Shown here piece after piece: positions 1,511 through 23,922 of a DNA stretch of 64,000 nt; within the stretch, counting starts at the first letter, position 1, and each line of letters starts with the position of its first letter. Origin of the DNA: Phycisphaerae bacterium (lineage in GTDB: Bacteria; Planctomycetota; Phycisphaerae; UBA1845). Position numbers and translations under genes: made by a program. The stretch covers positions 7,915-71,914 of the forward strand of contig JAGFJJ010000068.1 of assembly GCA_024102815.1 (NCBI GenBank), given 5' to 3'. The notes beneath the pieces are model-generated. The model searched no databases. It was not told where the DNA came from and saw only the letters and a list, made by a program, of their open reading frames with translations.

Positions 1511-1518
1511 CGTTTTGA

Positions 1519-2100: not shown

Positions 2101-2118
2101 CGTGGCGTTCCTTTCTGT

Positions 2119-3795: not shown

Positions 3796-4496
3796 GTTCG
3801 AGTCTCCTGCCCCTTCCAAGTAATCGCAATTGAACCGGATTCGAGGCCTGGATGTACGTGAAGAATCAGGCGATTTCCGATGAGACTCGCTTGGAAGGCC
3901 GGCTCGGTGTCCGGCTCCCCGCTATCGGCCGCCATCGGGAGCGGATCTTCTGGAAACCCCACGGACCAGATGAGGTCTTCGGCCGTCAGCGTACGCTCCC
4001 ACAGGACGCGGCCGGACTCCAGGCGCAGCCGGTAGTGCCCCGGCGTGACGTCGTGAATACTGTATGCGTCGCTGTCCTGCCCCAGGGCGAAACCGGCCAT
4101 CACCACTCCATTCCGCTCCACGATGATCTCACGAATCGAGGGGCGGTCCGCTGCGGAGCGGATGCCGCCACAGAACGTCTGGTAAATCTCGTCATCTCCG
4201 GAGGGGCCTGAATCGCCCGGTGTCTGGGTGACCCCCGGCTCCCCCTCCGAACCGGTCAGGCGTCTCACGCAGGACGCCACAACATCATCCAAGACCGACG
4301 ATTCTCCGGTGAATCCCGTTCTTGAGTACTCCCGAGCGACTTCGTCCATGAAGCGACGGAACTGCCTGAAGCCTGCCGTTTGTCTGGAAGGGCCGATTCT
4401 CGTGATCCGATCAAACGCCTCTCGAAGCGCGGACTTCGGATCGGGCTGCTCGAACGCATTGACAACAATCGGGATGAAAAAGAGGCGATCGTTCAC
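3792..4496 (-). CDS. hypothetical protein
   Basis: ORF with ordinary composition. The track starts it at GTG 4505. GTG 4496 lies 8 nt after a GGAGG and forms a GTGA overlap with the stop (4495..4493) of the upstream gene. No family recognised. Confidence 0.5.
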   Translation of the reverse strand: MNDRLFFIPIVVNAFEQPDPKSALREAFDRITRIGPSRQTAGFRQFRRFMDEVAREYSRTGFTGESSVLDDVVASCVRRLTGSEGEPGVTQTPGDSGPSGDDEIYQTFCGGIRSAADRPSIREIIVERNGVVMAGFALGQDSDAYSIHDVTPGHYRLRLESGRVLWERTLTAEDLIWSVGFPEDPLPMAADSGEPDTEPAFQASLIGNRLILHVHPGLESGSIAITWKGQETRT

Positions 4497-5644
4497 GGCG
4501 AGCACCTCCGGTTATCAGCGCGCACGATCACCTCGATCTTGGGCCACACGCCGGCTTCTCTGGCCATCTCGACGAATTCAGAATGATGGGCCAGGACTCT
4601 CGCGGTATTGGCCCACAGGTCCGGGACCACGGACTTCGAATTGGTTTGCCAACGGCTGCCTGCGAAACGGCTAAACGTAGCCTTGCTGATGTCGAATGCA
4701 CTGGCCACGGCGCTGTCCCGGTAGCACCCCCGGCTCAGGTCTTCGAAGACACGCAGAATCAGTCTACGCAAGTTGTGACAGCCGATGGCACGGATTGCAT
4801 CGCGCTGGCGCGCGAGGTTGTTGGCCTTTTCGTCGGCCACCGTTTCGGCCAAGCCACGGATGCTGACCTCTCTTTCCAGCAACCAACGGAGCGGCGCGTC
4901 CTCGGCGCGGTCTGTGGGGAGTCTGTTGACCTTGCTACCGAGGGGTAGGGTCGAGGCCCAGCCGAACCGTAGATTGACGATGCTCTGAACGCGTTTGGTC
5001 TCACCTGGTCGTGCGGGATCCGGATCGTCGATGTTGGCCTCCAACCACGCCCGGCGCTGATTGCCCGGCAACCGTGAAGGGAGCCAGACATAGACCACGC
5101 CGCCGCCGACTGACCAGGCGTAGCGAGTTCTTGTCCGATCGAGACTCCGCTTTGCGTCGAGACAAGAGAGGTAGAAGTGACGCACCACAAGGCGCTGAAG
5201 GTACCTGGCAATGGCTGTCTCCTCCTGCAAATCATCCGCGGAAGGATGAGATCGTCTCCAAGCCTCGCCGTGGCGCAGCACCGTCCCGAAGTACAAGCGG
5301 CAGTCCGAACCACTCTGTTTCACCGGCGCGCCTTGCCGGGGCGCGCCTGGCAAGTTGGTGAACTTGTCGATGGTGATGTCATAACCCCGATCGGCTACGC
5401 TTGGATCATCCCCGGACAGCCTCCGGGTGGCATATTCCCGGCGAAGGGAATCCAGGAGTTTGACCAAAAGCGAGGGAGGCCCACCGCGAAATCGAAACAC
5501 AGGCCGGTATCCATGGAATTCCTCCAATGCCCGCCGATCGCCGGAATGGCAGATCAAAGCGATCAGGCAAAGGAGCGAAGATGCACGAAGGGGGCGGTGA
5601 TCGTCCGCGCGGGAATGCCGTAGGTGAGCCGCGAGCGACGTCAT
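4493..5644 (-). CDS. hypothetical protein with C-terminal sigma-70 region-4-like HTH
   Basis: ATG 5644..5642 overlaps the kinase stop TGA 5643..5641 (ATGA). The C-terminal LRRLILRVFEDLSRGCYRDSAVASAFDISKATFSRFAG looks like a region-4/LuxR-type HTH. The rest is unrecognised. Confidence 0.5.
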   Translation of the reverse strand: MTSLAAHLRHSRADDHRPLRASSLLCLIALICHSGDRRALEEFHGYRPVFRFRGGPPSLLVKLLDSLRREYATRRLSGDDPSVADRGYDITIDKFTNLPGAPRQGAPVKQSGSDCRLYFGTVLRHGEAWRRSHPSADDLQEETAIARYLQRLVVRHFYLSCLDAKRSLDRTRTRYAWSVGGGVVYVWLPSRLPGNQRRAWLEANIDDPDPARPGETKRVQSIVNLRFGWASTLPLGSKVNRLPTDRAEDAPLRWLLEREVSIRGLAETVADEKANNLARQRDAIRAIGCHNLRRLILRVFEDLSRGCYRDSAVASAFDISKATFSRFAGSRWQTNSKSVVPDLWANTARVLAHHSEFVEMAREAGVWPKIEVIVRADNRRCSP

Positions 5645-7275
5645 GACCGCTCTCCAACTGACCTGGACCGCAGCGCGGCCGTCCATTGGGCGACGCGTCG
5701 GTCCACCCGCCGAGCGAGAGCGAGAGCACGGTCCCGGTCACCCGCGGCGACAGCCTGGTCGATCCGCACACGTTCCCGTCGAATGAACTCCACGACCTTC
5801 GCCGCCTGTCGCCGGGCCGGCATAACAGCCGTGCCTCCGGGGGAGAGCCGCTCCGCCTCTTCGAAACAGGACAGCGCCTTTTCCCAATTGCCGTCTTCCG
5901 CGTTTACCAGTCCCTGCTGCATCGCATCTCGATACAGTCGGGCCCGGAATGTCACCTGGACCTGGATCAGCCGTGCGGAGGGATGCTCAGGATACAGTCT
6001 GGCGGCTTCCGCGAGCATTCCCAGAAGCTCCTCAAGTCCCGACTCGTTCATTCCGTCCTTAATAGTGCGGTACAAACACTCGGCCTGATGAAAACGATCT
6101 TCGATCGCTTCCTGCATGTGTTTGGCGTCCGTGTTGTTTGGGCATTCCTCAAGAATGTGATGACACAGCCTCAGCGCATCGTCGAAGCGACCGTGCTCCA
6201 CCATGCGGCATGCCTGGTCCCACGATTCGTCTTGCGGATCGGGGTTGGCGACCGGTCGATCGGCCTGCGGGCGGCATGTGGGAGATTCAAGGTCGTCGAG
6301 GATGTCCGCTACACGCACGTAGCGCTGAGCGCTGTGTTTCGCCAGACAGCGGTTGATGACGTGCGCGACGTTTCTCGCTACGTCCGGCAGCGGTGGCGCT
6401 GCGACCTGAGTATGCAGATAACGGAGCCGTTCGAAGTTCCCTCCGAATGGAGGCCTGCCCTTCGGGTTGAGGATTTCGTATAGTACGACACCGAGACTGT
6501 AAACGTCGGAGCGGGCGTCGAGATCATCCGGATGCGGCGCGTTGAAGTGCTCCGGACTCATGTAGGCGGGCGTACCGGGGCAAGGATTGTCGTCCGCGCT
6601 GAACGACCCGTTTTCCGGATTGGGCGCCAGGCTCTCGAGGTACCGGGACAGACTGAAGTCCGCCACTTTCACGACGCCACGAACAAGAAGGAAGTTCTCC
6701 GGCTTCAGGTCGAGGTGCACAACGCCGGCGCCGTGGATGGCGGCGACGCCGCGGCAAATCTCCTTGAACATCTCAATGCCGCGGGTCTGGCGAGCCTCGA
6801 TATCAGACCGTCGGTTGAGCAACCACTGCCGCAGATCACCGCCGTCCGCATGCTCCATGGAAAGGACCATCAACATCGTGCCATGCCACGGCACCACGTG
6901 AAGATCGTACACTTTGAGAACGTGCCTGTGATCTTGAACGCGATCGTAAAGATCCTGTTCTTGCTGAAGCTCCCGTGCGGTGTGTTCCGAACCGGAGGGA
7001 CCTACGTCCACGACCTTGATCGCCACATCATGCGCACGCGTGGTATCACGGGCTGCGTAGACCTCGCCGATGCTCCCGCTGCCGATGTGCCTGTGGATGC
7101 AAAACCGCCCGAGCTGCGTGTTGCGCGATAGTGAAGGGGCACGATGGGCGTGTCCGTGCGCCATAGAGAGAAACGGGCCATCTCCCCGAACAGACTGCGA
7201 CCCGTTACACGATCCGGGACCCCAATCGAATGGTCTGCCGATTCTCGGAGTCAGACTCAATATGTTCTGCGACAT
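5641..7275 (-). CDS. Hanks-type Ser/Thr protein kinase with C-terminal TPR-like helical region
   Basis: Gly-loop IGSGSIGEVY; VAIK; catalytic HLDLKPENFLL; VADFSLSR (DFS in place of DFG); GTPAYMSPE. The C-terminal half is helical and repeat-like. Confidence 0.9.
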   Translation of the reverse strand: MSQNILSLTPRIGRPFDWGPGSCNGSQSVRGDGPFLSMAHGHAHRAPSLSRNTQLGRFCIHRHIGSGSIGEVYAARDTTRAHDVAIKVVDVGPSGSEHTARELQQEQDLYDRVQDHRHVLKVYDLHVVPWHGTMLMVLSMEHADGGDLRQWLLNRRSDIEARQTRGIEMFKEICRGVAAIHGAGVVHLDLKPENFLLVRGVVKVADFSLSRYLESLAPNPENGSFSADDNPCPGTPAYMSPEHFNAPHPDDLDARSDVYSLGVVLYEILNPKGRPPFGGNFERLRYLHTQVAAPPLPDVARNVAHVINRCLAKHSAQRYVRVADILDDLESPTCRPQADRPVANPDPQDESWDQACRMVEHGRFDDALRLCHHILEECPNNTDAKHMQEAIEDRFHQAECLYRTIKDGMNESGLEELLGMLAEAARLYPEHPSARLIQVQVTFRARLYRDAMQQGLVNAEDGNWEKALSCFEEAERLSPGGTAVMPARRQAAKVVEFIRRERVRIDQAVAAGDRDRALALARRVDRRVAQWTAALRSRSVGERS

Positions 7276-7287
7276 CGCGGACCCTCC

Positions 7288-9276
7288 TCAGATGGGTCGA
7301 AGCGCGAGCGCTTCGGTGCGCAGACGCTGCAAGGTGTGGTTGATGACTCGGTTCAAGCCACGCAGCCATGAATTGCTCGTTTCGTGCCGATAAAGTCCGT
7401 CGAACGCCTCAAGCAGCGTCCGGTTATGTTCCGCAGGCGTATGGCCGGGATCACCTGTTCCGGCATCGAAGAGGACCGAGCGGACAAGTACATTTTGCAG
7501 CCCATCGTGAAAGGCCTCGATGGTCGAACAGAGCCTCGGCAGGCGAGAACGCGAATCACCTCCAAACACAACCGTTTCGGTCTCGCGTACTCTCCCATCT
7601 GTTATCCACCAGAGGGCCTGAACCCTGGCCGGCGACAGGCCCATCCGTCCGTCCTCGGCGCGGATCTCTTCAAACTTGGCGGCGATCTTCTCGGCGGTCA
7701 GGGCGGCCTCGGGGCACGGCACAGGCTTGGATCGCTCCAGCAGCCACAGACCTTGGAACTTCATGTCGAGTACCGCTGCCGCCTGAATCCCGAAAGCGAG
7801 TCTCTCCTCCGTGGGCGCCGAGGTTGCGATGACGCACCTATTCTCCTTGAGCAGCTTCGCGATCCTCGCCAGGCGCTCGAACGTCTCCGAATCGTCAGGG
7901 GCGCGCTGGAGGTTCCGGAGGCAAGCGCTGTGGGCCTCAGCATACAGGCCGATCTGTTCGAGGATCTCCGCGTAGCGAAGTATGGACCGGGTGGAGCGCG
8001 GATCACCAGCCGGCAGCAACTGTATGAGGCGATGGCGCGCCTTGAGTTCACCCAAAGAGTCGTTTTTCGCAGCAGCCTCGTGAGCGCGCAGGCCCGAGAT
8101 GACCGCCTCGAAGCCACGTTTTTCAAGCTTGTGGTAGCTTTCCTCCAGTCCTTCGAAGCGTCTCGAATGGATGCCCTGCTGAATCCGATAGCACAATGCC
8201 CGCGCTTCGCTGACCTCTCGCTCTCGGCGCGCTAAATGACGCACCAGAGCAGGCGGGCCGACGACAGTGCGGTAGTGGTTTCCCGGGAGACGACAGTCCG
8301 GCTGAAGTCGCTCCGTGCCAGTCGCCCAGATGGCCGCCGTGCCGTCTTCGTGGATAAGCAGTAGCTTCAACGGCCCGGTATCAGGCACAACCGCCGCGGA
8401 CACAACGCCGCACGGGCCCTTCGCCTCTGCGACCCGAGTAACGGTGCCGTGACCAGCGCTGTTCGAAGACCACGTCCAGGTTCTTAGCAGGCCGTCTTCT
8501 CGTCCGATCGTGCAGAGCCGGCCGTCCTCGGTGATCGCAACGCTGAAGTTGCCGCCATGAGCCGGGCACACGCTGATCCGCAAGTCGCCAAGGTCCACGA
8601 GGACCAGCTCTCCGTCCGCGGAGGCGTACACGGCGGAGTTGCAGACGGGCCAGTGCTGCAATTGAACCAGGCCAAGCGTGACGGGCGGAACCGGGGCGTC
8701 GACGTTGTCTGCCAACTCCCCGGAGGGGAGGCGCAGCAGCAGCACCTTGCCTGAGGACGAAAGTCCCAGCAGTCTGTGGTCAGGGAGAGCCAGAAGGGAG
8801 CAGACCTTACCCTCGCGACGTTCCAAGCAGCGCGGGCGGTCAAACGACGAGTGTCCCGGGGGCCAGAGCAGGCATCGACCGGCCATATCACTGCTGGCCA
8901 GCAATCCACCGTCCAGTAGACAGACCGACAGCACCGGCGCACCCTGAACGAGCGACAACCGCTCAAGCCGGTCCGCGCGGGCCTGCTGCGCAGTTTCTCG
9001 GAGGATATCGATCGTGCCGTGACGCGATCCTGCCGCGACAACACCGCCCCGTTCGTCCACGTCGATTGCGTAGATGCTATGGCCCGCAGGCAGGCTAAGC
9101 AGCCTCGTGGAGTCTTTCCCGGCGTGGCACAACATCATCAGCCCGGGACTGGAACCTCCGGTCCCAAGGAGCAAACTGGATGTCACACTTTGGCCGTTCT
9201 TGTTCACCATCAGGGACTGCATCCAATTCCACGCAACATAACGACGGTGTGGCAATTCACATTCGCAGACGGTCAA
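7288..9276 (-). CDS. WD40/beta-propeller-like repeat protein with helical (TPR-like) C-terminal half
   Basis: Repeated blade-like strings: GSRHGTIDIL, SSDMAGRCLLW, SSSGKVLLL, ASADGELVLVD, GREDGLLRTWTW, IHEDGTAAIWA. Start uncertain (9276 or ATG 9222). Stops 12 bp before the kinase start. Confidence 0.7.
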   Translation of the reverse strand: MTVCECELPHRRYVAWNWMQSLMVNKNGQSVTSSLLLGTGGSSPGLMMLCHAGKDSTRLLSLPAGHSIYAIDVDERGGVVAAGSRHGTIDILRETAQQARADRLERLSLVQGAPVLSVCLLDGGLLASSDMAGRCLLWPPGHSSFDRPRCLERREGKVCSLLALPDHRLLGLSSSGKVLLLRLPSGELADNVDAPVPPVTLGLVQLQHWPVCNSAVYASADGELVLVDLGDLRISVCPAHGGNFSVAITEDGRLCTIGREDGLLRTWTWSSNSAGHGTVTRVAEAKGPCGVVSAAVVPDTGPLKLLLIHEDGTAAIWATGTERLQPDCRLPGNHYRTVVGPPALVRHLARREREVSEARALCYRIQQGIHSRRFEGLEESYHKLEKRGFEAVISGLRAHEAAAKNDSLGELKARHRLIQLLPAGDPRSTRSILRYAEILEQIGLYAEAHSACLRNLQRAPDDSETFERLARIAKLLKENRCVIATSAPTEERLAFGIQAAAVLDMKFQGLWLLERSKPVPCPEAALTAEKIAAKFEEIRAEDGRMGLSPARVQALWWITDGRVRETETVVFGGDSRSRLPRLCSTIEAFHDGLQNVLVRSVLFDAGTGDPGHTPAEHNRTLLEAFDGLYRHETSNSWLRGLNRVINHTLQRLRTEALALRPI

Positions 9277-9838
9277 TCTCGAAGAGGCCGTCCAGCTCCG
9301 TCTGTCCGGAAGGCAACAGGCAATGCGGAGGCGCCGTCACGGGACTCGACGTAAGCAGCGGGTCACACGGTTGTTGAACCGGCGGTCTCGGCAGGCTGCT
9401 CGGCAACGCGGGGGCGACCGCATCTTGCAGCGCATTTTCGGCAGACGCGATTTTCTGCTCGATTTGCGAGTGCATGGCAACGTGTTCCCGGTGTTCGGCA
9501 TTCAGCTGGTCCTCGGCCTCGGAATAGTGGTCTTCAGCTTGCCGGCCATGGAGCCGGGCGCAGTGGTCCGCGATGAGCTCACGGTTGCGGAAAAGCCGAT
9601 CGATCTCGGATTCCGAGGCCGCCAGATACTCGTGCAGTTCCTTGTCCAGCGTTTGCAGGCGGGCCCTCTCTGCGTTCAGCTCACCGATATACGGCCATTC
9701 CCAGACACCATCGAAGCCGAGCCTCGGTGGAACACCGGCGATCCTCTTCAGTTCCTCAATACACTCGTCAACTCTGGTTAGCAGCTGGGTGGCGTTTTCG
9801 AGGCTGTACGATTCCTGAGCGGGAGGTGACGGCGGCAT
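9257..9838 (-). CDS. hypothetical coiled-coil protein
   Basis: I use the internal ATG 9838 (MPPSPPAQESYSLENATQLL...), which sits 1 nt after the stop of 9840..10358. The 102 codons upstream in the track ORF (to 10144) are Arg/Lys/Ser-rich and overlap the better acidic ORF. Confidence 0.5.
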   Translation of the reverse strand: MPPSPPAQESYSLENATQLLTRVDECIEELKRIAGVPPRLGFDGVWEWPYIGELNAERARLQTLDKELHEYLAASESEIDRLFRNRELIADHCARLHGRQAEDHYSEAEDQLNAEHREHVAMHSQIEQKIASAENALQDAVAPALPSSLPRPPVQQPCDPLLTSSPVTAPPHCLLPSGQTELDGLFEIDRLRM

Positions 9839-9839: not shown

Positions 9840-10358
9840 CTACGATCTCCCCGCCGCTTGAATTCGCGCGCGTTGTTCCTCGTGAAGGCGCTCGCTCTCC
9901 TGGCGGGCCTCTTGGGCTTCACGCTCATGCTCATCGAGGAGTTCGATGTCACGCTGCGTTTCCATCTTGGCCTTTTCGAGTTCGCTTTTCGCCTCGTCGC
10001 TGTGCAGGCGATTCTCGCCGTCCGCGATCTTGCCCATATCCGATGAGGCCGCGTCGGATCGCTCGTGAAGCTCCTTCTCGAACTCTTCGCCCTCGTTCTG
10101 GACCTGTTCCAGCGTTTCGCCGTCTTCCTCGAACTCCCGGACACTCGTCTCCTGTGCCGCTTCGACCGCCTGTTCGACGGCCTCCGCCGCGTCGGACGTC
10201 CCGGTCAAGTCGAGACTCTCCAGAGTCTCCCGCTCCGTCTCGACGTCATCCGCGTGTTTCTCCAGGGCATCCGTCTTCTCATCGAATTCCGTCTTTCGGT
10301 CATCGACCGTTCTGGTCAGGTCGCTCCGCGTGGGAGCATCCGTTCGTCGCTTGCGCAT
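9840..10358 (-). CDS. highly acidic coiled-coil protein
   Basis: 172 aa, roughly 30% Asp+Glu by my count, with heptad-like charged repeats. GGAG lies 8 nt upstream of ATG 10358. Confidence 0.6.
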   Translation of the reverse strand: MRKRRTDAPTRSDLTRTVDDRKTEFDEKTDALEKHADDVETERETLESLDLTGTSDAAEAVEQAVEAAQETSVREFEEDGETLEQVQNEGEEFEKELHERSDAASSDMGKIADGENRLHSDEAKSELEKAKMETQRDIELLDEHEREAQEARQESERLHEEQRARIQAAGRS

Positions 10359-10451: not shown

Positions 10452-13232
10452 TCACTGATCGCGATCGGGGCGACCTGCCAACTCCTCGAGTCGGTTAAGC
10501 AGCGACGCCGTTTGCGGCTCGATAAGCGTCTCGAAACGGCTCACGAGAGCGGCTCGAAGCTGACCGGTGCCACAGTCATCACCTTCAGACGGTGGTCCCG
10601 CGCCGAGGAGGTTGCGGTACGGACCGCGCCGGAGGCCGGCAAGAGAAGCGGCGAGCCGATCGCGCAGGCTCCGGGCGCACCGAGCCAACCCGGCGTGCCG
10701 GGAAGAGGAGTTCCCATTGCCGGTGGCGCTTAGAATCCGCTCGCGGTCCCTGTCTATTCGTTTGAGTCCGTCATGGACACGCCGCTTGTCCTCCTCGAAT
10801 CGATCCATCGCGTTGCGCAAGCGGCCCAGTTCGTCAGCGCTGCGAAGGACGGTGGCCTTGACAAACCAGTCCTCGCGACTGATCAGCTCTGCGAGTTCCT
10901 GATCTGTCGGCGGCGCTTCCAGCTTCAGGGTGGTGGCCAGGTCGGGCGTTCGAATCCGCTGCGGACCGTGGTACCCCTCGGTATACAGATAGGCCTCGCC
11001 CGGCGTTAGACGGGCGACCTCTTCCGTTTCGACCGGGCCGAAGAGCATCGCGCTACCCACGATCTCCCGATCGTCGGCGTCCACCAGGCGGAAGGCGAGC
11101 TTGCTACCGGTGTTCTTGATTACTTCGGGGGCGACGGCCGAAGGCAGCTGATCGATGATGATGATCGCAACTCCGAGAGCGCGCAACTCGGCCAGCATCC
11201 GGCATATGTACTCGGCGGCGAAGGCTTTGGGATCCGGGTTGTCTTCAGAGGGCGCCGCATCGCCGCTACGACCGACGACGTTGTGCGCCTCCTCAATGAC
11301 TATGACAAACCGTGTGTCGCCGGAGAATCGCGGATGGGCCCGAACGTGCTCGCGCACGGCGGTGAGGAGAAAGAGGGTCACTAGGCATTTCAATTCCGGC
11401 GGAAGCGAGTCGAGTTCGAGGATGGAGTAAGACCGCATCAACTCGTCGATTCCCGGGACGTTGGTTCCGCACTGGAACATCCGGCCAATCGTTCGACGGA
11501 TGAGCTTCCCGAGACGCACTTCCAACGCCGCCGCCAGGTCGGACTTGAGATCCGCGGAGTAGCTTTTCTCAGATAGAACGGCCTGCGCTGCAGCGCACAG
11601 ATCATGCATGACCGGGAATGTATCTGGATCCGCCTGCTCGTCGTAAACACGCTCCAGCGCCTCGCCGAGAATCCCCGGCAAGGGGCCGGACATCGCCATG
11701 GCCGCCTGGAAGCAGACCAAGAGGTTCTCGATGTGTTCATCGCGAGCGATACCCTCCGGATGCCAAAGCGGATTAAGGCGAAACGGTGAAACGATCTCGA
11801 CACCGGGCGTGTGGACCTTGAGTTGTTCTGCCAGCTCACGAGCGCCGGCGTCGTGGCTTCCCGACAGTGTCTTGAGAATGCGATACTGCGTGTTCGCAGT
11901 TTCGATAACCAGGAACGGCGTGCCGCGACGAGACAGTTGCAGCAGGGTGTTAAACGTGGACACGGTCTTGCCGCTGCCGGGAACGCCACTGATGAACCAG
12001 TGCTTGGGCAGGCCGTTATCGCGAATGCCGCGCAATACGCGCGATTCCGAGGCGCCAATATGCTGTCCATCGAATCCGACGGTGATGAGCCGATCATGCG
12101 GCACTTGGGGTGGGTCCGTATTGCGCCGGATGCAGCACGGCGATCCGTACGATGCGACCGGAAGACACCAGACTCCGGCCAATTCGTCTACGGTCGCGAC
12201 GTGGCCGAGACGCGACAGCCCGCTATATGTGGAGGCGTGTACACCCAAGACGAGGTCGTGTGTCGGAAAGCCCAGTACCTGGTGGTCCCGAACCGCCTGA
12301 AGGGCCTGATCGAAGAGACATTCACCCTTACGACATGCAAAAAGCCTATAACTGCCGCCATCAAACGCGGATTCCGCAACAGTCGACACCAGAAGATGCG
12401 CTACTTCCGGCGTCTTCGCCAGGACACGAGCGTGGAACGCGAGATGGGGCTGTGACAGGGTCTCGTGAAAGCTGCGGCGCTGCCGCAGGATGTCGTCAGC
12501 GAGAGGATCCTTGTAGCGCAGGGGCATTACGGTCGATCGCCCGCGTCGTGCGTATCGGTCTTCTGGGCAGAACGGGTCGGGTTCCGCGCCGTCCTCCGCG
12601 TCGTTGAAATCACTGGAGCGGTTGATGGCCTGCAACCTGGCCAGATCCCGGGTATGTTCGGTTCGCTCGGTTCGGACGCAGGTCGGCTCGACACAGATGT
12701 CGATCAGTGCCGGCTCATTGAGGCGGCTTAGGACGGAGTCGAGCTTCATGCCATCATTACTGTGGGTCGGCGTGAACGGATCGATAGTGTAGTATACAGG
12801 CGGGATCCGCGGATTGAATTCCGCGGAGTGGAGGGGATCGACCGCCCCCTCAGCCCGCGCTATGTCATGGGCCGCCGCAAACACCTCCCAGGGTACGCTG
12901 CATTCCTCAACGGCTTGCAGGGTGTAAAGCTCCACCAACGCCGATGACTCGATAAGGGCTCGAAAGCTGGAGGCCGTCTCTTTCCGTGGAGCGTTGATGA
13001 TCAGGAAGATAGCAAGTCGATCCTGCACGTTTCCGGACTTGGGCGCCGGAGTGAAGGCCAACCGCACGGACACCGCCACAGATTGCGGCGCTCTGGACGC
13101 CACAACCCGCAGCAGGTGCTCCTGCGCGCCTCGAACCGCCGAGGGCACGTCAGCGCGAGCGAGCAGCCGGTAGCGCGGGAAGGCCGAGTCCGGAAGATGG
13201 CCGACACGGTAGATCAACACGTGTGGCTTCAT
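10452..13232 (-). CDS. HerA/FtsK-superfamily (DUF87-like) P-loop ATPase, large
   Basis: Walker A FISGVPGSGKTVSTFNTLLQL. Walker B region FVIVIEEAHNVV. GVAIIIIDQLPSAVAPEVIKNTGSKLAFRLVDADDRE is typical of HerA-type ATPases. ATG 13232 (MKPHVLIYRV...) forms an ATGA overlap with the E1 stop (13231..13229). Coiled-coil C-terminal tail. Confidence 0.85.
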   Translation of the reverse strand: MKPHVLIYRVGHLPDSAFPRYRLLARADVPSAVRGAQEHLLRVVASRAPQSVAVSVRLAFTPAPKSGNVQDRLAIFLIINAPRKETASSFRALIESSALVELYTLQAVEECSVPWEVFAAAHDIARAEGAVDPLHSAEFNPRIPPVYYTIDPFTPTHSNDGMKLDSVLSRLNEPALIDICVEPTCVRTERTEHTRDLARLQAINRSSDFNDAEDGAEPDPFCPEDRYARRGRSTVMPLRYKDPLADDILRQRRSFHETLSQPHLAFHARVLAKTPEVAHLLVSTVAESAFDGGSYRLFACRKGECLFDQALQAVRDHQVLGFPTHDLVLGVHASTYSGLSRLGHVATVDELAGVWCLPVASYGSPCCIRRNTDPPQVPHDRLITVGFDGQHIGASESRVLRGIRDNGLPKHWFISGVPGSGKTVSTFNTLLQLSRRGTPFLVIETANTQYRILKTLSGSHDAGARELAEQLKVHTPGVEIVSPFRLNPLWHPEGIARDEHIENLLVCFQAAMAMSGPLPGILGEALERVYDEQADPDTFPVMHDLCAAAQAVLSEKSYSADLKSDLAAALEVRLGKLIRRTIGRMFQCGTNVPGIDELMRSYSILELDSLPPELKCLVTLFLLTAVREHVRAHPRFSGDTRFVIVIEEAHNVVGRSGDAAPSEDNPDPKAFAAEYICRMLAELRALGVAIIIIDQLPSAVAPEVIKNTGSKLAFRLVDADDREIVGSAMLFGPVETEEVARLTPGEAYLYTEGYHGPQRIRTPDLATTLKLEAPPTDQELAELISREDWFVKATVLRSADELGRLRNAMDRFEEDKRRVHDGLKRIDRDRERILSATGNGNSSSRHAGLARCARSLRDRLAASLAGLRRGPYRNLLGAGPPSEGDDCGTGQLRAALVSRFETLIEPQTASLLNRLEELAGRPDRDQ

Positions 13233-14719
13233 ATCGCAGCCGCCTGCTCGGCAAACTCCGCCGCGTCGTCGCCGCTGACCTCCACGCCGTCTCTTGCAGC
13301 CGTCTCGCCGACGTAGTCTCCGCAGCACGGACATCCGGTGTTACGCGGCAGGTCGACGCCGTACCAACGAAGGACATGCATGCCATCGACGCTGCACTCC
13401 AGCGGTTCGAGGTTCTCGAAGTCCGTATCCTTTTCTCGGCGATTCAACCAGATGTACCATGGGGCCGAGAGATCCTCATCCAGTGACTTCAGCGTTGTCT
13501 CCTTGCCCTTCAGCAATTCCTGGATGACGAGTTTGACGACCATGAGGCTGATCGGGGCGATGTCCGTCGAGAGCCCCGGCTCGACGGCAACCGGACGATC
13601 CGAGTACGCTACCTCATCTGCTTGCTCCTGGTTGGATACCCGCTCATACGCCGCCTGCTCGGGTAGGGCCCCCAGAAAGCACTGGTAACAGGGAGACTCA
13701 TGCGGCCGCACCCTGAGTACTTGCCCGCCGTGCGCACGCCGAAAGGCCGCCGCGATGATGCACGGCGTGTTCTCCTCCACGCAGAGCTTGTTTAGGATCA
13801 CTCGGCTTTCGCGGTTGTCCGTAGCGATGACGACGACGTCCGCCCTGCGGATGATGCGACGAAGAAACTCCGTGTTGTTCCAGGAGACTTTACAATCCCA
13901 GGCACGCACCTCGGCGAACGGGTTCTTCTCCAGGATCATCTCCCGCATCACGTCGGTCTTGAGCCGTCCCACGTCGGAGATACCCGCCATGTGCCGGACC
14001 ACATTACCGGTTTCAAGCCGATCGTGATCCATGATGTCGAAGTGCATGACTCCCTGTTTCGGCAGCTCCCAGGCAATGGGAGACCCGCCCGATCCCAGGC
14101 CGACGACGAAGACTGTTGCATCCGCGAGTGCGTCAGTCTCCAGCAGACCCTTGGCACGCGAGAACAGCTCTTCACGCACCGGAATCACGCAGACCGTCGC
14201 TGCCTTCCAGCCGTCGCCCGTCCGAACGAAGCCGAGGATCTCGTGGGGAGACTGCCCCATCGCTTCACCGGACGGTGACGTCCGCGGAGAGACAATGACC
14301 CTCACGCGATCGGTCGGCGCGCCGATCTCGGTGACGGCGATCCCCTGCCCGGGCGGGGCCCACTGGATCGTTGCAGGAAGCGCTCTGGACAGGTCTGTCT
14401 TCGCAATCCCGTTGTAGACCTTGCCGCCGTCCCTGCATTGGAGTGCCAAACGCCTGGGCTCGCGCGTGCTAAGCACGGTGTGAATCTGCTCACCGGGCAG
14501 TACGATGAACGGGACGCGCTCCTCCGGATCCGCAAACACGTCCATGTCCTCCGGCTTCACGGACAGGTACCTGTCCGGGTCCTTGCCATCCGTGACTTCC
14601 GCGTCGTCCACTCTTACGAGCCTGCGCAGGTCCTTACTGTAAACGATCCGCCCGCCGGCGGTGTTGCCGGTACGTACATCGTCCATGGCCTCACGAATCC
14701 TAGCTTCCTCAGTTTGCAT
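13229..14719 (-). CDS. E1-like ThiF/MoeB-family adenylyltransferase with ~190-aa N-terminal extension
   Basis: VFVVGLGSGGSPIAWEL (GxGxxG); DHDRLETGNVVRH; IATDNRESR; two Cys pairs (SPCYQCF and GCPCCGDY). Overlaps the E2 stop by 11 bp. Confidence 0.85.
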   Translation of the reverse strand: MQTEEARIREAMDDVRTGNTAGGRIVYSKDLRRLVRVDDAEVTDGKDPDRYLSVKPEDMDVFADPEERVPFIVLPGEQIHTVLSTREPRRLALQCRDGGKVYNGIAKTDLSRALPATIQWAPPGQGIAVTEIGAPTDRVRVIVSPRTSPSGEAMGQSPHEILGFVRTGDGWKAATVCVIPVREELFSRAKGLLETDALADATVFVVGLGSGGSPIAWELPKQGVMHFDIMDHDRLETGNVVRHMAGISDVGRLKTDVMREMILEKNPFAEVRAWDCKVSWNNTEFLRRIIRRADVVVIATDNRESRVILNKLCVEENTPCIIAAAFRRAHGGQVLRVRPHESPCYQCFLGALPEQAAYERVSNQEQADEVAYSDRPVAVEPGLSTDIAPISLMVVKLVIQELLKGKETTLKSLDEDLSAPWYIWLNRREKDTDFENLEPLECSVDGMHVLRWYGVDLPRNTGCPCCGDYVGETAARDGVEVSGDDAAEFAEQAAAI

Positions 14720-15176
14720 TTTGGATTCTCTCCTTTTGTTTATCTATGAACTTCGCAATGCTCTCACCCGTACGCAAGTGCGCCGCATACGCTTCAATCC
14801 AGAGCATTCCACGCATAAAGATCGCAATCATGGTCATGCGTGCATCCCAACCGCTCATAAAGCAGATCGCCACACAACCACTGGGGTGTTTGCTAGCCGT
14901 GTGAAACTCGTGGGATGCACCAAGCGAGTTGATCGTGGAGAGGTTTCCATGCTTCCAGAGAACTTGCGGACTCGCCACGATGAGAAAGGGCTTCTCATGC
15001 GGATAGTTGGGAGTGAGCAGCAACCTCAGGCGGTACACCTCAGATCCCGCCGTTGGCGTAACGGGTCCTTCAACATACGTGTCGCGGGCTGGGTTGAAGA
15101 ACTCAAACTGAGGCATCGTACGCTGGAGCTGCTTTTTCTCTAACGCCAAGCGGTAGCGTTCATCTGGTGACCACAT
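14709..15176 (-). CDS. E2/UBC-like protein (prokaryotic E2 family)
   Basis: Internal ATG 15176 (MWSPDERYRLALEKKQL...) with AAGGA 8 nt upstream. LLLTPNYPHEKPFLIVASPQVLWKHGN resembles the UBC YPxxPP flap plus an HPN-like HGN motif. Candidate catalytic Cys in SGCVAICFMSGWD. Confidence 0.65.
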   Translation of the reverse strand: MWSPDERYRLALEKKQLQRTMPQFEFFNPARDTYVEGPVTPTAGSEVYRLRLLLTPNYPHEKPFLIVASPQVLWKHGNLSTINSLGASHEFHTASKHPSGCVAICFMSGWDARMTMIAIFMRGMLWIEAYAAHLRTGESIAKFIDKQKERIQNAN

Positions 15177-15192
15177 GCGTGTGTTCCTTCGT

Positions 15193-16353
15193 TTACAGGT
15201 ACCTTCCAAACCACTCGAGCATGCGTCCTCGACCCGGTTGCCCGTCACGTCCGCCGGTTGCTCGGGAAGCCTCGTCGCGACCGTCCTGCTTGGGCAGATC
15301 TGTCGTACACTTGGTTTTGCCGTGATGGACAAGGGACTCGGCCCGAGCGTAGATCGTGCTGATGACCGTTTGTGGTCCATCGGGAAGGACAGCGCACGAA
15401 ATGTCGCGGACGTCACACTGCTCCGGCGTTGTGAGACCGACTGAGCGGACTTCGTGGGGCGGTGTCGCGTCGTAGGCGATGAGGATTCGCCAAGAAGATA
15501 GAGACAAGCTGAGGATGATGACTTCGCCCTCTATGTGCAAACTCAGATCCTCGAGGATTGACTCGGGCAGCGCGGCAACCTGCTGGGCGATATGCTCAGG
15601 AATATCCGTAGTTGGTTCGTCCCTCTCGACGTGGGGATCGAACAGTAGGCGGTTCATGGGGAACGCGCGATTCTCCACGCCTGGGCCCGCACCGTTAAGT
15701 AGGTCATTGAGGCTCATCGTCAGCCCGACGGGACTGATTCCTGGGATCGTCTTGATCGGACATCGCTCGTACTCGGCTGCCTGGGGATCGGTGTGATGAA
15801 AGGAGTTGATCCTTACGATGGTGTTTTCTTGATCAGGGCGAGGACGTGCTCTCGATGCGAGCAACTGCGCGCCGTTGAACGCGCGCTGCATGCACGTCGA
15901 GATCAAGCCGGCGGAGCGGTCCACTCTTGGGGCGCCGCGTTCGTGCGTGACGATGATCTCGACCAAGCGCGAAAGGTCGTTTCGTTGGCTCAGCGATTGT
16001 ATCGTCCGCTCGTCGCCGGAGCTAAGATGATCCAATCCTAGTGAGTAATGGCTGTGCCAGCGACCGACGAGCTGGATCCCGTATGTCTCCTGGAGGAACC
16101 GGGTGACTCTTTTGAAGTGGTCGACATCTTGAGCGAAGTGCGTTGCCTCGTGAACAGCGTTCGGTCCTGGACTCGAGGCAAACAGCACCACGGCTCGCCC
16201 GGCATGTGTCCATAACCCATAGAGATACCCCCCAGTCTCAAGATCTGTCCAGGCCGCGGATGTGGCTGCAATGCACTGAAGCACCGACTGCCAAGTGGTG
16301 AAGTATCGATCGTGCTCGGTCTGTTTCGCGCGTTTCTTGCGAGGTCGTGGCAT
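15193..16353 (-). CDS. JAB/JAMM (MPN+) metallopeptidase with ~230-aa unrecognised C-terminal region
   Basis: ETGGYLYG (Glu) followed by GRWHSHYSLGLDHLSSGD, which is the HxH-x7-S-xxD JAMM motif. First gene of the minus-strand run. Confidence 0.8.
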   Translation of the reverse strand: MPRPRKKRAKQTEHDRYFTTWQSVLQCIAATSAAWTDLETGGYLYGLWTHAGRAVVLFASSPGPNAVHEATHFAQDVDHFKRVTRFLQETYGIQLVGRWHSHYSLGLDHLSSGDERTIQSLSQRNDLSRLVEIIVTHERGAPRVDRSAGLISTCMQRAFNGAQLLASRARPRPDQENTIVRINSFHHTDPQAAEYERCPIKTIPGISPVGLTMSLNDLLNGAGPGVENRAFPMNRLLFDPHVERDEPTTDIPEHIAQQVAALPESILEDLSLHIEGEVIILSLSLSSWRILIAYDATPPHEVRSVGLTTPEQCDVRDISCAVLPDGPQTVISTIYARAESLVHHGKTKCTTDLPKQDGRDEASRATGGRDGQPGRGRMLEWFGRYL

Positions 16354-16632
16354 ACCTTGCCCCTTTCGTGGCGACCCTGGATCGGATCGGCGACCCGGAC
16401 CGCGCTTTCGTAGCGGACGACGCTGTCCTGGCCCTGAGCCTCCCTGTCACCCCACCAATCGCAATTGACGCCGGGGTTTGCGCCAAAAAAATCGGTGGAA
16501 TTGCCGCGCGCCGGTGAGCTTGGCCCCAGGCAGGACGTGACGGGTCGTGAAACGAAACGGCCTCGGCCACCGCTGAGTGGGTGGAAGGGCGTACGGATCA
16601 GTGAGGCACGCAACGGTACGGGACACCAAAGG

Positions 16633-23811: not shown

Positions 23812-23922
23812 TAAGTACGGGCGATGCAAAGCGAATCGACAAGAGCGGTGCAGTCCCAAAACGCTGTTACCGGTGCGCGCCAGGCCGGGCGGTTCACGGG
23901 ACCATGCCGGGAGCTCGACAGG

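What the first reader, a model, noticed from the sequence alone, without database searches (positions are those of the whole stretch)
13229..16353. Complete JAB/E2/E1 enzyme set with no recognisable ubiquitin-like substrate gene
The JAMM motif (E...HSH-x7-S-xxD) is intact. So are the E2 features (YPxxKP flap, HGN, Cys in GCVAICF) and the E1 features (GxGxxG, DN..R, two CxxC pairs). However, I find no small beta-grasp ORF with a C-terminal Gly upstream, between or downstream of them, and none of the 13 complete operon proteins ends in Gly.

Three explanations seem possible:
- The modifier is encoded beyond the left edge or elsewhere in the genome.
- The enzymes act as in CBASS Cap2/Cap3 and conjugate the C-terminus of an operon partner.
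- A beta-grasp domain is hidden in the ~190-aa N-terminal extension of the E1 or in the ~230-aa C-terminal region of the JAB protein.
Basis: partly seen in the sequence, partly recalled or inferred. Interest (0 to 1): 0.7.

Follow-up and report, generated by a model that had tools for sequence, protein, structure and literature searches.

The report
Split Cap2/Cap3-like conjugation module, no ubiquitin
The three enzymes are real and intact, but they belong to the bacterial-immunity (CBASS Cap2/Cap3) lineage that tags proteins without any ubiquitin-like protein, and here they head a conserved, undescribed 13-gene operon together with an overlooked ~60-residue mini-protein that may be what they attach.

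Summary
An intact JAB peptidase, a Cys-E2 and a ThiF-type E1 lie at 13229-16353 (minus strand). No beta-grasp gene was found in the operon, in the DNA left of the window, or in about 90 related loci.

The trio is a split version of the CBASS Cap2/Cap3 module. The best structural match of the E1 is Cap2. The same cassette occurs in true CBASS and TIR operons, whose cyclases end in ...FPAYG or ...TFGA. This lineage is known to conjugate non-Ubl proteins through their C-termini, so the missing Ubl is expected.

Three things are new:
- The cassette heads a conserved 13-gene operon with no cyclase: a HerA/FtsK-like ATPase, a WD40 protein, a Ser/Thr kinase, a Lon-like protein and others. It lies in a defence island on an integrative element.
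- E1 residues 1-62 are an independent ~60-aa module. It is a separate small ORF in most relatives. It ends in a conserved aromatic-plus-small-residue motif followed by variable tails or by the fusion to E1.
- The E1 clade has no crossover-loop Cys but an invariant Tyr372.

My working model (about 0.4) is that JAB frees this module and E1/E2 conjugate it. The main rival (about 0.3) is conjugation of an operon partner.

The parts
15193..16353 (-). JAB/JAMM metallopeptidase, Cap3-like, 386 aa. The catalytic core covers about residues 20-140 and resumes near residue 180 (conserved RCPIxxxPGxSPxR). A C-terminal alpha/beta region of about 130 aa has unknown function, and the tail is unconserved.
   Evidence: PADLOC JAB models at 1.8e-14. 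E39, H100, S111 and D114 invariant and H102 nearly so (A6). Profile hit to 9ild peptidase. C-termini vary between loci.
14709..15176 (-). E2 (UBC-like), 155 aa, encoded as a separate gene. The catalytic Cys is C105, with H89/H92 and a YPxxxP flap (P59, P63).
   Evidence: PADLOC E2 at 6e-5. Invariant residues in 32 orthologues (A5). Profile hits eukaryotic E2s.
14534..14719 (-). N-terminal module ('NTM'), E1 residues 1-62, fused to E1 in this window. It consists of a helix (4-16), a beta-hairpin (23-38) and a strand (51-53). It ends in ...KPEDMDVF61-A62. This is the proposed conjugated moiety.
   Evidence: It is a separate ORF of 57-72 aa in 46 of 77 loci and is fused in 31. 78 of 120 E1 homologues start just after it. 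AF2 pLDDT is 57-69. There are no Pfam, PADLOC or Foldseek relatives.
14513..14533 (-). Variable linker, E1 residues 63-69 (DPEERVP), between the NTM and the E1 body. The proposed JAB cleavage site lies at its start.
   Evidence: Linker length in the fused forms examined runs from none to a long insert: none in the Bradyrhizobium E1 (MFS followed directly by VVTLSSG), commonly 8-12 aa, and long inserts in L039 and L062, the latter with extra NTM-like repeats. pLDDT is below 50 at residues 62-64.
14165..14512 (-). E1 middle domain, about residues 70-185, beta-rich. It is probably the counterpart of the Cap2 linker domain and the ATG7 N-terminal domain.
   Evidence: pLDDT about 82-95. Foldseek's top hit, Cap2 7to3_A, aligns 436 columns, more than the adenylation domain alone. 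There is no sequence-level family hit.
13229..14164 (-). E1 adenylation domain, about residues 186-496. It has GLGSGGS (207-213), D231, R242 and the zinc cysteines C344, C347, C463 and C466. The crossover loop (348-383) has no conserved Cys and has invariant Y372 and D374.
   Evidence: Pfam ThiF 1.4e-35. PDB hits. Invariant columns. Crossover-loop analysis.
10452..13232 (-). ATPase of about 926 aa. The C-terminal half is HerA/FtsK/CedD-like (Walker A GVPGSGKT) and the N-terminal 430 aa are unknown. Its start overlaps the E1 stop (ATGA).
   Evidence: PADLOC mad8 7.6e-14 and HerA models. NCBIfam CedD 5.8e-14. It follows E1 in most of the related loci, the exceptions being the CBASS/TIR-type cassettes.
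9840..10358 (-). p172, an acidic protein of 172 aa with a short basic, Gly/Ala/Ser-rich tail. It is a secondary candidate substrate.
   Evidence: 325 cluster representatives at E<=1e-3, with length fixed near 170 aa. 85 of 134 have a Gly in the last 6 residues, with no fixed position.
923..9838 (-). The rest of the conserved operon: p195b (9257-9838), WD40 plus TPR (7288-9276), Ser/Thr kinase plus TPR (5641-7275), p397 (4493-5686), p237 (3792-4505), p566 with a weak Lon/RadA-C-like N-terminal half (2119-3819), p193 (1519-2100) and p195 (923-1510). The C-terminal 190 aa of p566 are paralogous to p193 and, in some loci, to p195.
   Evidence: Family hits. Gene order is conserved in L001-L013. Paralogy is shown by tblastn cross-hits. 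p195 ends in R-(I/V/L)-G-R-x in 6 of 7 loci.

Best explanation
**What it is (confidence about 0.85).** The three genes are a split form of the CBASS-lineage Cap2/Cap3 protein-conjugation module. E2, E1 and JAB are separate polypeptides instead of an E2-E1 fusion plus Cap3. This lineage activates the C-terminus of a protein that is not a beta-grasp Ubl, so no ubiquitin-like gene is needed. In this window the module has been recruited to head a 13-gene operon that has no nucleotide cyclase. The operon lies in a defence island on an integrative element.

**How I think it works (inferred; about 0.4 for the whole chain).**
1. The moiety that is conjugated is the ~60-residue module encoded as E1 residues 1-62.
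2. The JAB peptidase cuts after the conserved aromatic-small pair (F61-A62 here). This frees the module from E1. In relatives where the module is a separate gene, the same cut would trim the 0-17-residue tail.
3. The E1 adenylates the exposed C-terminus.
4. The E1 either forms an oxyester on the invariant crossover-loop Tyr372, as Bub E1s do, or passes the acyl-adenylate directly to E2 Cys105.
5. The E2 ligates the module to a lysine of an operon partner or of an invader protein.
6. JAB also reverses the conjugation.

**Shown:** enzyme identity, catalytic residues, the separability and motif of the module, and the operon contexts.

**Inferred:** cleavage, adenylation of the module, use of the Tyr, the target, and a defence role.
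For: **Enzyme identity.**
- CBASS HMM hits for JAB, E2 and E1.
- The E1 AF2 model (mean pLDDT 82) matches Cap2 7to3_A best, at E 1.4e-16 over 436 columns.

**The same cassette occurs in CBASS and TIR operons.**
- Bradyrhizobium barranii plasmid L094: JAB, E2, NTM::E1, SMODS, Cap4-nuclease/SAVED, TIR.
- L080/L081 and L074 carry SMODS and an S_4TM effector. L066 carries ThsB-type TIR genes.
- The cyclases there end in ...FPAYG or ...TFGA.

**Literature.**
[quoted passage not shown] E. cloacae CdnD ends in ...GRFA. Cap3 cuts exactly after the last cGAS residue in a cGAS-GFP fusion (10.1101/2022.03.31.486616).
- Cap2/Cap3 also occur in Thoeris operons (10.64898/2025.12.03.692087).

**The module behaves as an independent unit.**
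- It is a separate ORF in 46 of 77 loci, often in another frame or after an in-frame stop.
- 78 of 120 E1 homologues begin at 'MIVISGE', just after it.
- It is the only conserved small ORF family around the cassette.
- It is present in every operon type that carries this E1 clade.

**Its C-terminal motif.**
- 55 of 64 unique sequences have F, Y or W at the motif position. The next residue is G, S, A or C in 40 of those 55.
- Some natural proteins end exactly there...AELFG*...ATRFA*...AKRFC*.
- Others carry variable tails or the fusion to E1. One locus has three tandem copies ahead of E1.
- This is the pattern of precursors processed by a peptidase. Type I Bub gives a precedent: the Ubl-E2 fusion BubAB is cut by the JAB domain of BubCD (PMC11601596).

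**E1 chemistry.** There is no conserved Cys in the crossover loop and Y372 is invariant in 79 of 79 sequences. The same holds in the CBASS-type members. Bub E1s use such a Tyr.
Against: - The CBASS-type relatives have both the module and a cyclase with a typical conjugation tail. Parsimony therefore allows the module to be an accessory part of the split E1, with an operon partner as the substrate.
- The small residue after the aromatic is Gly in only about a third of sequences. 9 of 64 lack the aromatic altogether. This is far weaker than the Gly-Gly of true Ubls.
- The Bradyrhizobium fusion has no linker at all between the motif and the E1 body.
- The module is predicted with low confidence (pLDDT about 64). 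It has no beta-grasp topology and no structural relatives.
- I could not inspect model coordinates or run complex predictions. Nothing shows that the motif reaches the adenylation site.
- A defence role rests only on the genomic neighbourhood.
Confidence: 0.4

Rival explanations
1. CBASS-style conjugation of an operon partner. The E1 adenylates the C-terminus of one of the other operon proteins and the E2 ligates it, which tunes that protein's activity. JAB reverses the modification. The best candidates are p195 (ends ...R-I-G-R-S) and p172 (basic, Gly-rich tail). In this reading the N-terminal module is an accessory part of the split E1. It could be a docking element for the free-standing E2, a pseudo-substrate lid, or the lysine acceptor.
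For: - In relatives the same cassette, module included, sits beside cyclases with conserved conjugation tails (...FPAYG...TFGA). So the established Cap2 logic probably applies there.
- TIR proteins next to Cap2/Cap3 carry such tails. The ThsB protein next to the cassette in L066 ends in ...ARIAGR. This resembles the p195 ends ...RIGRS...RVGRR and ...RVGR, found in 6 of 7 loci.
- 85 of 134 p172 relatives have a Gly in the last 6 residues.
- In Cap2 the E2 is tethered N-terminal to the linker domain. That is the position the module occupies in the fused E1.
Against: - No partner has the aromatic-Gly/Ala extreme C-terminus seen in the cyclases.
- The p172 tail has no fixed Gly.
- p195 was seen in only 7 distinct loci. 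In the L001/L096 type it lies on the opposite strand upstream of the operon.
- A pure docking domain would not be expected as a free 60-aa protein in most loci, with unconserved tails and occasional tandem copies.
- hhalign finds no relation between the module and the E2.
Confidence: 0.3
2. A conventional beta-grasp Ubl encoded elsewhere in the genome, or hidden in the C-terminal ~230 aa of the JAB protein, is the modifier.
For: - The JAB C-terminal region (about residues 250-350) is a conserved alpha/beta domain with no family assignment. I could not model it.
- Only about 11 kb to the left of the window and the window itself were inspected.
Against: - About 90 related loci from several phyla keep the cassette, and none has a Ubl gene nearby.
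- The cassette moves between operon types as a unit of four genes.
- JAB C-termini are unconserved in sequence and length. That is incompatible with a terminal Gly-type modifier.
- The enzyme lineage is the Ubl-independent Cap2/Cap3 one.
Confidence: 0.07
3. The E1 is not a protein-conjugating enzyme here. It lacks a crossover-loop Cys. It might act like MccB, ThiF or MoeB, adenylating a peptide or protein C-terminus for a different chemistry such as cyclisation, thiocarboxylation or nucleotide attachment. The small upstream ORF would then be a RiPP-like precursor: a conserved 'leader' followed by a variable tail.
For: - There is no conserved Cys in the crossover loop.
- MccB and ThiF are among the structural and sequence neighbours.
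- The small ORF has a conserved N-terminal part and a variable C-terminal tail.
Against: - An E2 with an invariant Cys and a JAB isopeptidase always accompany the E1.
- The variable tail can be absent, which does not fit a RiPP core peptide.
- Cap2's own E1 Cys is dispensable in vitro, and Bub E1s conjugate via Tyr. Absence of the Cys therefore does not argue against conjugation.
Confidence: 0.08

Closest known systems
Type II CBASS Cap2 (E2-E1 fusion) and Cap3 (JAB)
   Same: - A homodimer-type ThiF/ATG7-like adenylation domain preceded by a linker domain. Cap2 7to3 is the best structural match.
- A Cys-E2 and a JAMM peptidase, with no beta-grasp Ubl.
- CBASS HMMs hit all three proteins.
- The identical split cassette occurs in operons with SMODS cyclases and with S_4TM, Cap4-SAVED or TIR effectors.
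   Different: - E2 and E1 are separate genes.
- The E1 lacks the crossover-loop catalytic Cys (C548 in Cap2) and has an invariant Tyr instead.
- JAB carries an extra ~230 aa.
- An extra ~60-aa module precedes E1.
- This operon has no CD-NTase, no SAVED or other nucleotide-sensing effector, and no partner with the typical tail.
Thoeris operons carrying Cap2/Cap3 (bioRxiv 10.64898/2025.12.03.692087)
   Same: They show that the Cap2/Cap3 module is a portable accessory that can serve a signal-producing enzyme other than a CD-NTase. L066 here has the split cassette next to ThsB-type TIR genes.
   Different: The window operon has no TIR. Its partners are a kinase, a WD40 protein, a HerA-like ATPase, a Lon-like protein and unknowns.
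Bub (6E/DUF6527) pathways (PMC11601596)
   Same: - The E1 crossover loop has no Cys and has an invariant Tyr.
- The modifier is made as a fusion to a pathway enzyme and released by a JAB domain. This is the precedent for the proposed NTM::E1 processing.
   Different: - Bub has beta-grasp Ubls ending in Gly, a Ser-E2 and the DUF6527 protease BubE.
- Here the E2 has an invariant Cys. There is no DUF6527 hit and no beta-grasp.
Eukaryotic ATG7 with ATG3/ATG10 and ATG8/ATG12
   Same: - Cap2 resembles ATG7, with an N-terminal domain that positions a separate E2 and no catalytic-Cys helical insert (paper).
- From my own knowledge: ATG8-family substrates end in aromatic-Gly after a protease removes a variable C-terminal extension. 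The module's motif and tails look the same.
   Different: The module is not a beta-grasp by predicted topology. The E1 has no crossover Cys. The processing enzyme would be a JAMM metallopeptidase, not an Atg4-type cysteine protease.
Bil (BilABCD) systems
   Same: A four-gene logic of small protein, E2, JAB and E1, in an anti-phage context.
   Different: [quoted passage not shown] Neither is present here.

Membership tests
CBASS-type Cap2/Cap3 conjugation module | ThiF/ATG7-like adenylation domain with ATP-binding residues and zinc-binding Cys pairs | tested here: met
   Pfam ThiF 1.4e-35. Invariant G207, G209, D231, R242, C344, C347, C463 and C466. Cap2 is the top Foldseek hit.
CBASS-type Cap2/Cap3 conjugation module | Linker (ATG7-NTD-like) domain N-terminal to the adenylation domain | tested here: inconclusive
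   Residues 70-180 form a confident beta-rich domain. The Cap2 alignment spans 436 columns. I could not see the per-residue alignment, and there is no sequence hit.
CBASS-type Cap2/Cap3 conjugation module | E2 domain fused to E1 in one polypeptide (Cap2) | tested here: not met
   E2 is a separate 155-aa gene in the window and in every related locus in which it was found.
CBASS-type Cap2/Cap3 conjugation module | E1 catalytic Cys on the crossover loop (C548 in E. cloacae Cap2) | tested here: not met
   There is no conserved Cys at residues 348-381 in 79 homologues. Y372 and D374 are invariant. The same holds in CBASS-type split E1s.
CBASS-type Cap2/Cap3 conjugation module | E2 catalytic Cys | tested here: met
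   C105 is invariant in 32 orthologues.
CBASS-type Cap2/Cap3 conjugation module | JAMM peptidase with E...HxH...S..D | tested here: met
   E39, H100, S111 and D114 are invariant and H102 is nearly invariant. PADLOC JAB 1.8e-14.
Type II CBASS (whole system) | CD-NTase (SMODS) with a conserved C-terminal tail, plus a nucleotide-activated effector in the operon | tested here: not met
   There is no SMODS, SAVED, S_4TM or TIR hit in any of the 13 operon proteins. These are present in the relatives L080, L074, L094 and L066.
Ubiquitin-like (beta-grasp) modifier, tested for the N-terminal module | beta-beta-alpha-beta-beta(-beta) topology | tested here: not met
   The AF2 secondary structure is H4-16, E23-28, E33-38, (H39-43), E51-53. 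The model is low confidence (pLDDT 64). Foldseek gives no hit with E<1.
Ubiquitin-like (beta-grasp) modifier, tested for the N-terminal module | Conserved C-terminal Gly(-Gly), exposed directly or after processing | tested here: inconclusive
   An aromatic residue followed by G (18), S (9), A (9) or C (4) in 55 motif-bearing sequences. Tails are 0-17 aa, or the module is fused to E1.
Bub (6E/DUF6527) | Ser-E2, DUF6527 serine protease and a beta-grasp Ubl | tested here: not met
   The E2 has an invariant Cys. There is no DUF6527/PF20137 hit and no Ubl. Only the Tyr-bearing, Cys-less E1 crossover loop is shared.
Bil (BilABCD) | ISG15-like Ubl gene and an E1 with IAD-AAD-CYS architecture | tested here: not met
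   There is a single adenylation domain and no Cys domain. No Ubl ORF was found.
MADS (PADLOC mad1-8) | Full set of mad genes, including the methyltransferase | tested here: not met
   Only the kinase (mad6, 9.5e-54) and the ATPase (mad8, 7.6e-14) hit. The kinase also hits many PD-T4-6 kinase models, and the ATPase also hits HerA models. The other proteins give no hits.

The most novel reading that the evidence does not exclude
The ~60-residue module would be a new kind of protein modifier that is not a beta-grasp.
- It is made either as a stand-alone mini-protein with a disposable tail or as an N-terminal fusion to its own E1.
- A JAMM peptidase matures it at an aromatic-Gly/Ala/Ser site.
- A Cap2/ATG7-like E1 activates it using a crossover-loop tyrosine (oxyester) instead of cysteine.
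- The module then passes to a cysteine E2.

This four-gene cassette would be a portable tagging unit. It would serve CBASS, TIR systems and the 13-gene kinase/WD40/HerA system found here.
Probability: 0.3. Interest if true: 0.85.

Novelty: new variant of a known kind. Interest (0 to 1): 0.6.

Why it matters
- **The headline is explained.** E1, E2 and a deubiquitinase without ubiquitin are normal for the Cap2/Cap3 lineage, which needs no Ubl.
- **A third host for the module.** After CBASS and Thoeris, the Cap2/Cap3 machinery turns up in a large, widespread operon that I could not find described. It has a kinase, a WD40 protein, a HerA/FtsK-like ATPase and a Lon-like protein, and no nucleotide-signal synthase. 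The operon occurs in Planctomycetota, Desulfobacterota and Bacteroidales MAGs, and the CBASS-type cassette on a Bradyrhizobium plasmid. This makes the question of what Cap2/Cap3-type conjugation regulates testable in a new setting.
- **A constant fourth component.** Gene callers and domain databases miss the ~60-aa module. If it is the conjugated moiety, protein tagging by E1/E2 enzymes extends beyond the beta-grasp fold.
- **A mixed chemistry.** An invariant Tyr and no Cys in the E1, combined with a Cys-E2, would be an intermediate between canonical thioester cascades and the all-oxyester Bub pathway.

Tried and rejected
1. **p172 as a Pup-like modifier ending in Gly-Gly.** A few orthologues end in ...TGG*...AGGR* or ...AGGK*. 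In 134 family members the tail is only basic and Gly/Ala/Ser-rich. 85 have a Gly in the last six residues and 27 have GG in the last eight, with no fixed position. I kept it only as a weak candidate.
2. **p237 as a modifier ending in ...WKG/FRG plus a tail.** This is not conserved across loci.
3. **A Ubl just left of the window.** L006 shows none.
4. **A beta-grasp in E1 residues 1-190.** The AF2 topology and the Foldseek results do not support it. A few Foldseek hits of the module model were to staphylococcal SSL/EAP proteins (from my own knowledge, these contain beta-grasp domains). They had E>=2.5 and probability <=0.07, so I treat them as noise.
5. **The module as a relic of the N-terminal half of an E2.** It has a similar helix followed by a beta-meander, but hhalign against the E2 family gives nothing.
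6. **Membership in MADS.** Only the generic kinase and ATPase hit.
7. **Single-sequence PDB searches of E2 and JAB.** These found nothing useful. Family profiles were needed.
8. **Structure of JAB residues 150-386.** Not attempted. Only five homologues of 73-100% identity were retrievable.
9. **More p195 sequences.** A scan of viral contigs found none, and the p195 profile has no PDB relative.
10. **Literature searches for the 13-gene system.** These found no description of it.

Full report
**1. What is at the coordinates**

The minus strand between 16353 and 923 carries one tightly packed operon. Its first three genes are the finding: JAB (15193-16353, 386 aa), E2 (14709-15176, 155 aa from the ATG at 15176) and E1 (13229-14719, 496 aa).

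All three hit the HMMs that PADLOC built from CBASS operons: JAB at 1.8e-14, E2 at 6e-5 and 'E1-E2' at 3e-31. The E1 also hits Pfam ThiF at 1.4e-35, and ThiF, SAE2, Uba4, MccB, MoeB and Cap2 in the PDB.

I built orthologue alignments from related loci and checked the catalytic residues.
- **JAB:** E39, H100, S111 and D114 are invariant and H102 nearly so (A6).
- **E2:** C105, P59, P63, P70, W110 and W126 are invariant. H89 and H92 are nearly invariant (A5).
- **E1:** G207, G209, D231, R242 and the zinc cysteines C344, C347, C463 and C466 are invariant in 79 homologues (A3).
- **Family profiles:** the E2 family reaches eukaryotic E2s and the JAB family reaches a solved JAB peptidase, 9ild.

- The conserved E2 histidines are S-H89-x-F-H92, not 'HGN'.
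- The catalytic Cys is C105.
- The E1 crossover loop has no conserved cysteine.

**2. Is a Ubl really absent?**

- None of the 13 products ends in Gly.
- The window's own contig continues to the left (L006). It carries a TrwB-like ATPase, a 212-aa protein, an AEP primase, three small proteins, a tyrosine integrase and IS genes. There is no Ubl.
- I collected 95 further loci. They came from contig look-ups, a scan of species-representative genomes, a metagenome scan and two plasmid records.
- Clustering every ORF of 35-140 aa around the cassette gave only one conserved family that is not an antisense shadow of JAB or E2. That family turned out to be the first ~60 residues of the E1.

**3. What the trio is**

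AlphaFold2 on the E1 with 79 homologues gave mean pLDDT 82.
- Residues 186-496 form the adenylation domain.
- Residues 70-180 form a confident beta-rich domain.
- Residues 1-66 are only moderately confident (pLDDT 57-69).

Foldseek against the PDB ranks Cap2 of Enterobacter cloacae (7to3_A) first, at E 1.4e-16. The alignment has 436 columns, more than the adenylation domain alone. ThiF, Uba4, UBA5, MoeB, ATG7, BubCD and MccB follow.

The same split cassette occurs in genuine CBASS-type operons.
- **Bradyrhizobium barranii plasmid pBb323S2b:** JAB, E2 and E1 are followed by a frameshifted SMODS cyclase, a Cap4-nuclease/SAVED effector and a TIR protein.
- **L080/L081 and L074:** the cassette lies beside SMODS cyclases and an S_4TM effector.
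- **L066:** it lies beside ThsB-type TIR genes.
- **Cyclase tails:** the cyclases end in ...FGGCFPAYG...FGDYFPAYG and ...LFGSTFGA. This is the kind of tail that Cap2 adenylates. E. cloacae CdnD ends in ...KTGRFA, and Cap3 cuts exactly after the last cyclase residue (10.1101/2022.03.31.486616).

Cap2/Cap3 have also been reported in Thoeris operons, where the TIR protein carries the tail (10.64898/2025.12.03.692087).

So the enzymes belong to a lineage that works without a beta-grasp protein. The older operon typology (6a-6e; PMC1779556) has no class with three separate genes and no Ubl.

**4. The operon it heads**

Gene order is conserved in MAGs of Planctomycetota, Phycisphaerae, Desulfobacteraceae, Thermodesulfobacteriota and Bacteroidales, and in dozens of metagenome contigs. 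The order is:
- JAB, E2, (module), E1;
- a ~925-aa ATPase that is HerA/FtsK/CedD-like;
- p172, an acidic protein;
- a ~200-aa protein;
- a WD40 plus TPR protein;
- a Ser/Thr kinase plus TPR;
- p397, p237 and p566;
- p193 and p195.

The N-terminal half of p566 is weakly like the Lon/RadA C-terminal domain. The C-terminal domain of p566 is paralogous to p193 and, in some loci, to p195.

No member hits SMODS, SAVED, TIR or any other signalling-nucleotide family. PADLOC recognises only the kinase and the ATPase generically, as mad6 and mad8. I found no paper describing the system.

The surroundings in the window are a defence island:
- a type I R-M system;
- a Piwi-domain (Argonaute-type) protein with an adjacent SIR2-like protein;
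- an AAA_15/AAA_21 ATPase;
- an AbiU2-like HEPN protein (weak hit);
- a sigma-54 activator with a weak CARF-like hit in its N-terminal region.

The operon lies on an element with an integrase, an HTH_17 protein (probably an excisionase), a primase, a TrwB-like ATPase and a Replic_Relax protein. A defence or conflict role is likely but untested.

**5. The overlooked fourth component**

- In L003/L004, L007, L011 and L012 the first ~60 residues of the E1 are encoded in a different frame from the rest.
- 78 of the 120 best E1 homologues start exactly at 'MIVISGE', which corresponds to window residue ~70.
- I searched stop-to-stop translations of all loci with HMMs of the two parts. The module is a separate ORF in 46 loci and fused in 31. 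In six loci the two parts are separated only by an in-frame stop followed by K-M.
- The module is also present in the CBASS- and TIR-type cassettes. The mobile unit is therefore four genes: JAB, E2, module, E1.

The consensus is SEQERVRRIMEDMARGNDIGKKLVYDPKTKRIRPVSPF-DPDRTIEITPEDMTFFG.
- Of 64 unique sequences, 55 have F, Y or W at the penultimate motif position. In those 55 the next residue is G (18), S (9), A (9) or C (4).
- After that point conservation stops. Stand-alone proteins carry 0-17 further residues (two outliers carry 41). Three end exactly at the motif: ...AELFG*, ...ATRFA* and ...AKRFC*.
- Fused proteins carry anything from no linker (Bradyrhizobium) through the usual 8-12 residues to long inserts.
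- One locus (L062) has three tandem, degenerating copies, each ending in ...DA(D/N/E)L(F/Y)(G/C), ahead of the E1 body.

In this window the motif is ...KPEDMDVF61-A62, followed by DPEERVP and the E1 body. This clade lacks the internal Met, so the fusion here is obligate.

The predicted topology is helix 4-16, hairpin 23-38, strand 51-53. That is not a beta-grasp. The stand-alone model has pLDDT 64 and no structural neighbour with E<1. There are no Pfam or PADLOC hits, and no profile similarity to the E2.

**6. E1 chemistry**

Cap2 has a catalytic Cys (C548) on the crossover loop, although it is dispensable in vitro. In this clade the loop (residues 348-383) has no conserved Cys. It contains an invariant A-Y372-(S/T)-D374-R-P-V in 79 of 79 sequences and in the CBASS-type members. 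AF2 predicts the loop to be flexible, with pLDDT below 50 at residues 368-382.

Bub E1s likewise lack a Cys and use the only invariant loop residue, a Tyr, to form an oxyester (PMC11601596). Bub E2s use Ser, whereas the E2 here keeps an invariant Cys. The E1 may pass the acyl-adenylate straight to the E2 Cys, or it may use Tyr372. Neither was tested.

**7. Mechanism: what I commit to, and the rivals**

Shown: the enzyme identities and catalytic residues, the lineage, the operon contexts, and the separability and motif of the module.

Inferred (about 0.4):
1. The module is the conjugated moiety.
2. JAB frees or trims it after the aromatic-small pair.
3. E1 adenylates it.
4. E2 Cys105 carries it to a lysine.
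5. JAB reverses the modification.

The argument has four parts.
- The module is the only constant partner of the enzymes across unrelated operon types.
- Its conserved end resembles the ends of Cap2 substrates (...RFA, ...AYG, ...FGA). From my own knowledge it also resembles the ends of ATG7 substrates.
- Variable tails, fusions and tandem copies are what precursors of conjugated proteins look like.
- The JAB-mediated release of BubA from the BubAB fusion is a precedent.

The main rival (about 0.3) is that an operon partner is conjugated, as cyclases are in CBASS. The module would then be an accessory of the split E1: an E2 dock, a pseudo-substrate or an acceptor.
- This is more parsimonious, because CBASS-type relatives carry both the module and a tailed cyclase.
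- However, no partner here has a cyclase-like tail. The best candidates are p195 (...R-I/V/L-G-R-x in 6 of 7 loci, reminiscent of the ThsB end ...ARIAGR in L066) and p172.

A Ubl elsewhere or inside the JAB C-terminal region (about 0.07), and a non-conjugating, MccB-like chemistry (about 0.08), remain possible.

**8. Verdict**

The paradox is largely resolved, because this is a Ubl-independent Cap2/Cap3-type module.

The novelty lies in three things: its split architecture with a fourth mini-component, its Cys-less and Tyr-bearing E1, and its recruitment to a large cyclase-less system for which I found no description. I rate it a new variant of a known kind, with interest 0.6.

Noticed in passing
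window 32714-35743 (+): A Piwi-domain protein (639 aa, Pfam Piwi 1.7e-20) is immediately followed by a SIR2-like protein (367 aa). This looks like a prokaryotic Argonaute-SIR2 defence pair.
   Followed up: no
window 23824-30094 (+): A complete type I restriction-modification system: HsdR (1166 aa, with an N-terminal DUF4145), HsdM (519 aa) and HsdS (405 aa).
   Followed up: no
window 22210-23775 (+): A sigma-54-dependent activator (AAA+ domain plus Fis-type HTH). Its N-terminal region gives a weak Csm6-CARF hit (1.4e-3), so it may be a nucleotide-sensing regulator next to the defence genes.
   Followed up: no
window 1-783 (-), continuing in L006 10728-17488: The operon is followed by an 830-aa TrwB/TraD-like ATPase that runs off the left edge of the window. 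After it come a 212-aa protein (a weak paralogue of p193), an AEP primase, an HTH_17 protein and a tyrosine integrase. A divergent Replic_Relax gene lies at window 16465-17538. The TrwB-like and Replic_Relax genes flank the operon again in L096/L097, so they may belong with it or with its mobile element.
   Followed up: partly
window 923-3819 (-): The C-terminal ~190 aa of p566 are paralogous to p193 and, in some loci, to p195. The three carry related motifs (EARYGIHGGMRF in p566, DGTNGGLRV in p193, ARTG-x-EGG-(L/V/I)-Y in p195). The extreme C-termini of p193 (...FRRL) and p566 (...(F/L)-(R/Q)-x-(L/F)) are conserved. The p195 profile has no PDB relative.
   Followed up: partly
L062 5236-5900: One metagenomic E1 (contig Ga0209270_1000047) carries three tandem copies of the N-terminal module before the E1 body. 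The second and third copies are degenerate.
   Followed up: partly
L017, L022, L025, L028, L029, L032 (junction between the module and E1): The module ORF ends at an in-frame stop that is followed directly by K-M-IVISGE. A single stop codon therefore separates the 'split' state from the 'fused' state. Read-through was not examined.
   Followed up: no
L094 13441-14312 (Bradyrhizobium barranii plasmid NZ_CP088281.1): The SMODS cyclase of this CBASS operon is split into two overlapping ORFs (167 and 206 aa). This is a frameshift or a sequencing error. RefSeq annotates only the C-terminal part, as a hypothetical protein.
   Followed up: no
window 9840-10358 (-): The p172 family is large (325 cluster representatives at 50% identity) and its length is held at about 170 aa. 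It is strongly acidic, with invariant scattered residues. There is no family or structure assignment.
   Followed up: partly
window 35768-41819 (+) and 18257-21152 (-): Further defence-island-type genes: a DUF4209/DUF7380 protein, a DUF2130 protein, an AAA_15/AAA_21 ATPase, a PRiA4_ORF3 protein and a weak AbiU2-like HEPN protein.
   Followed up: no
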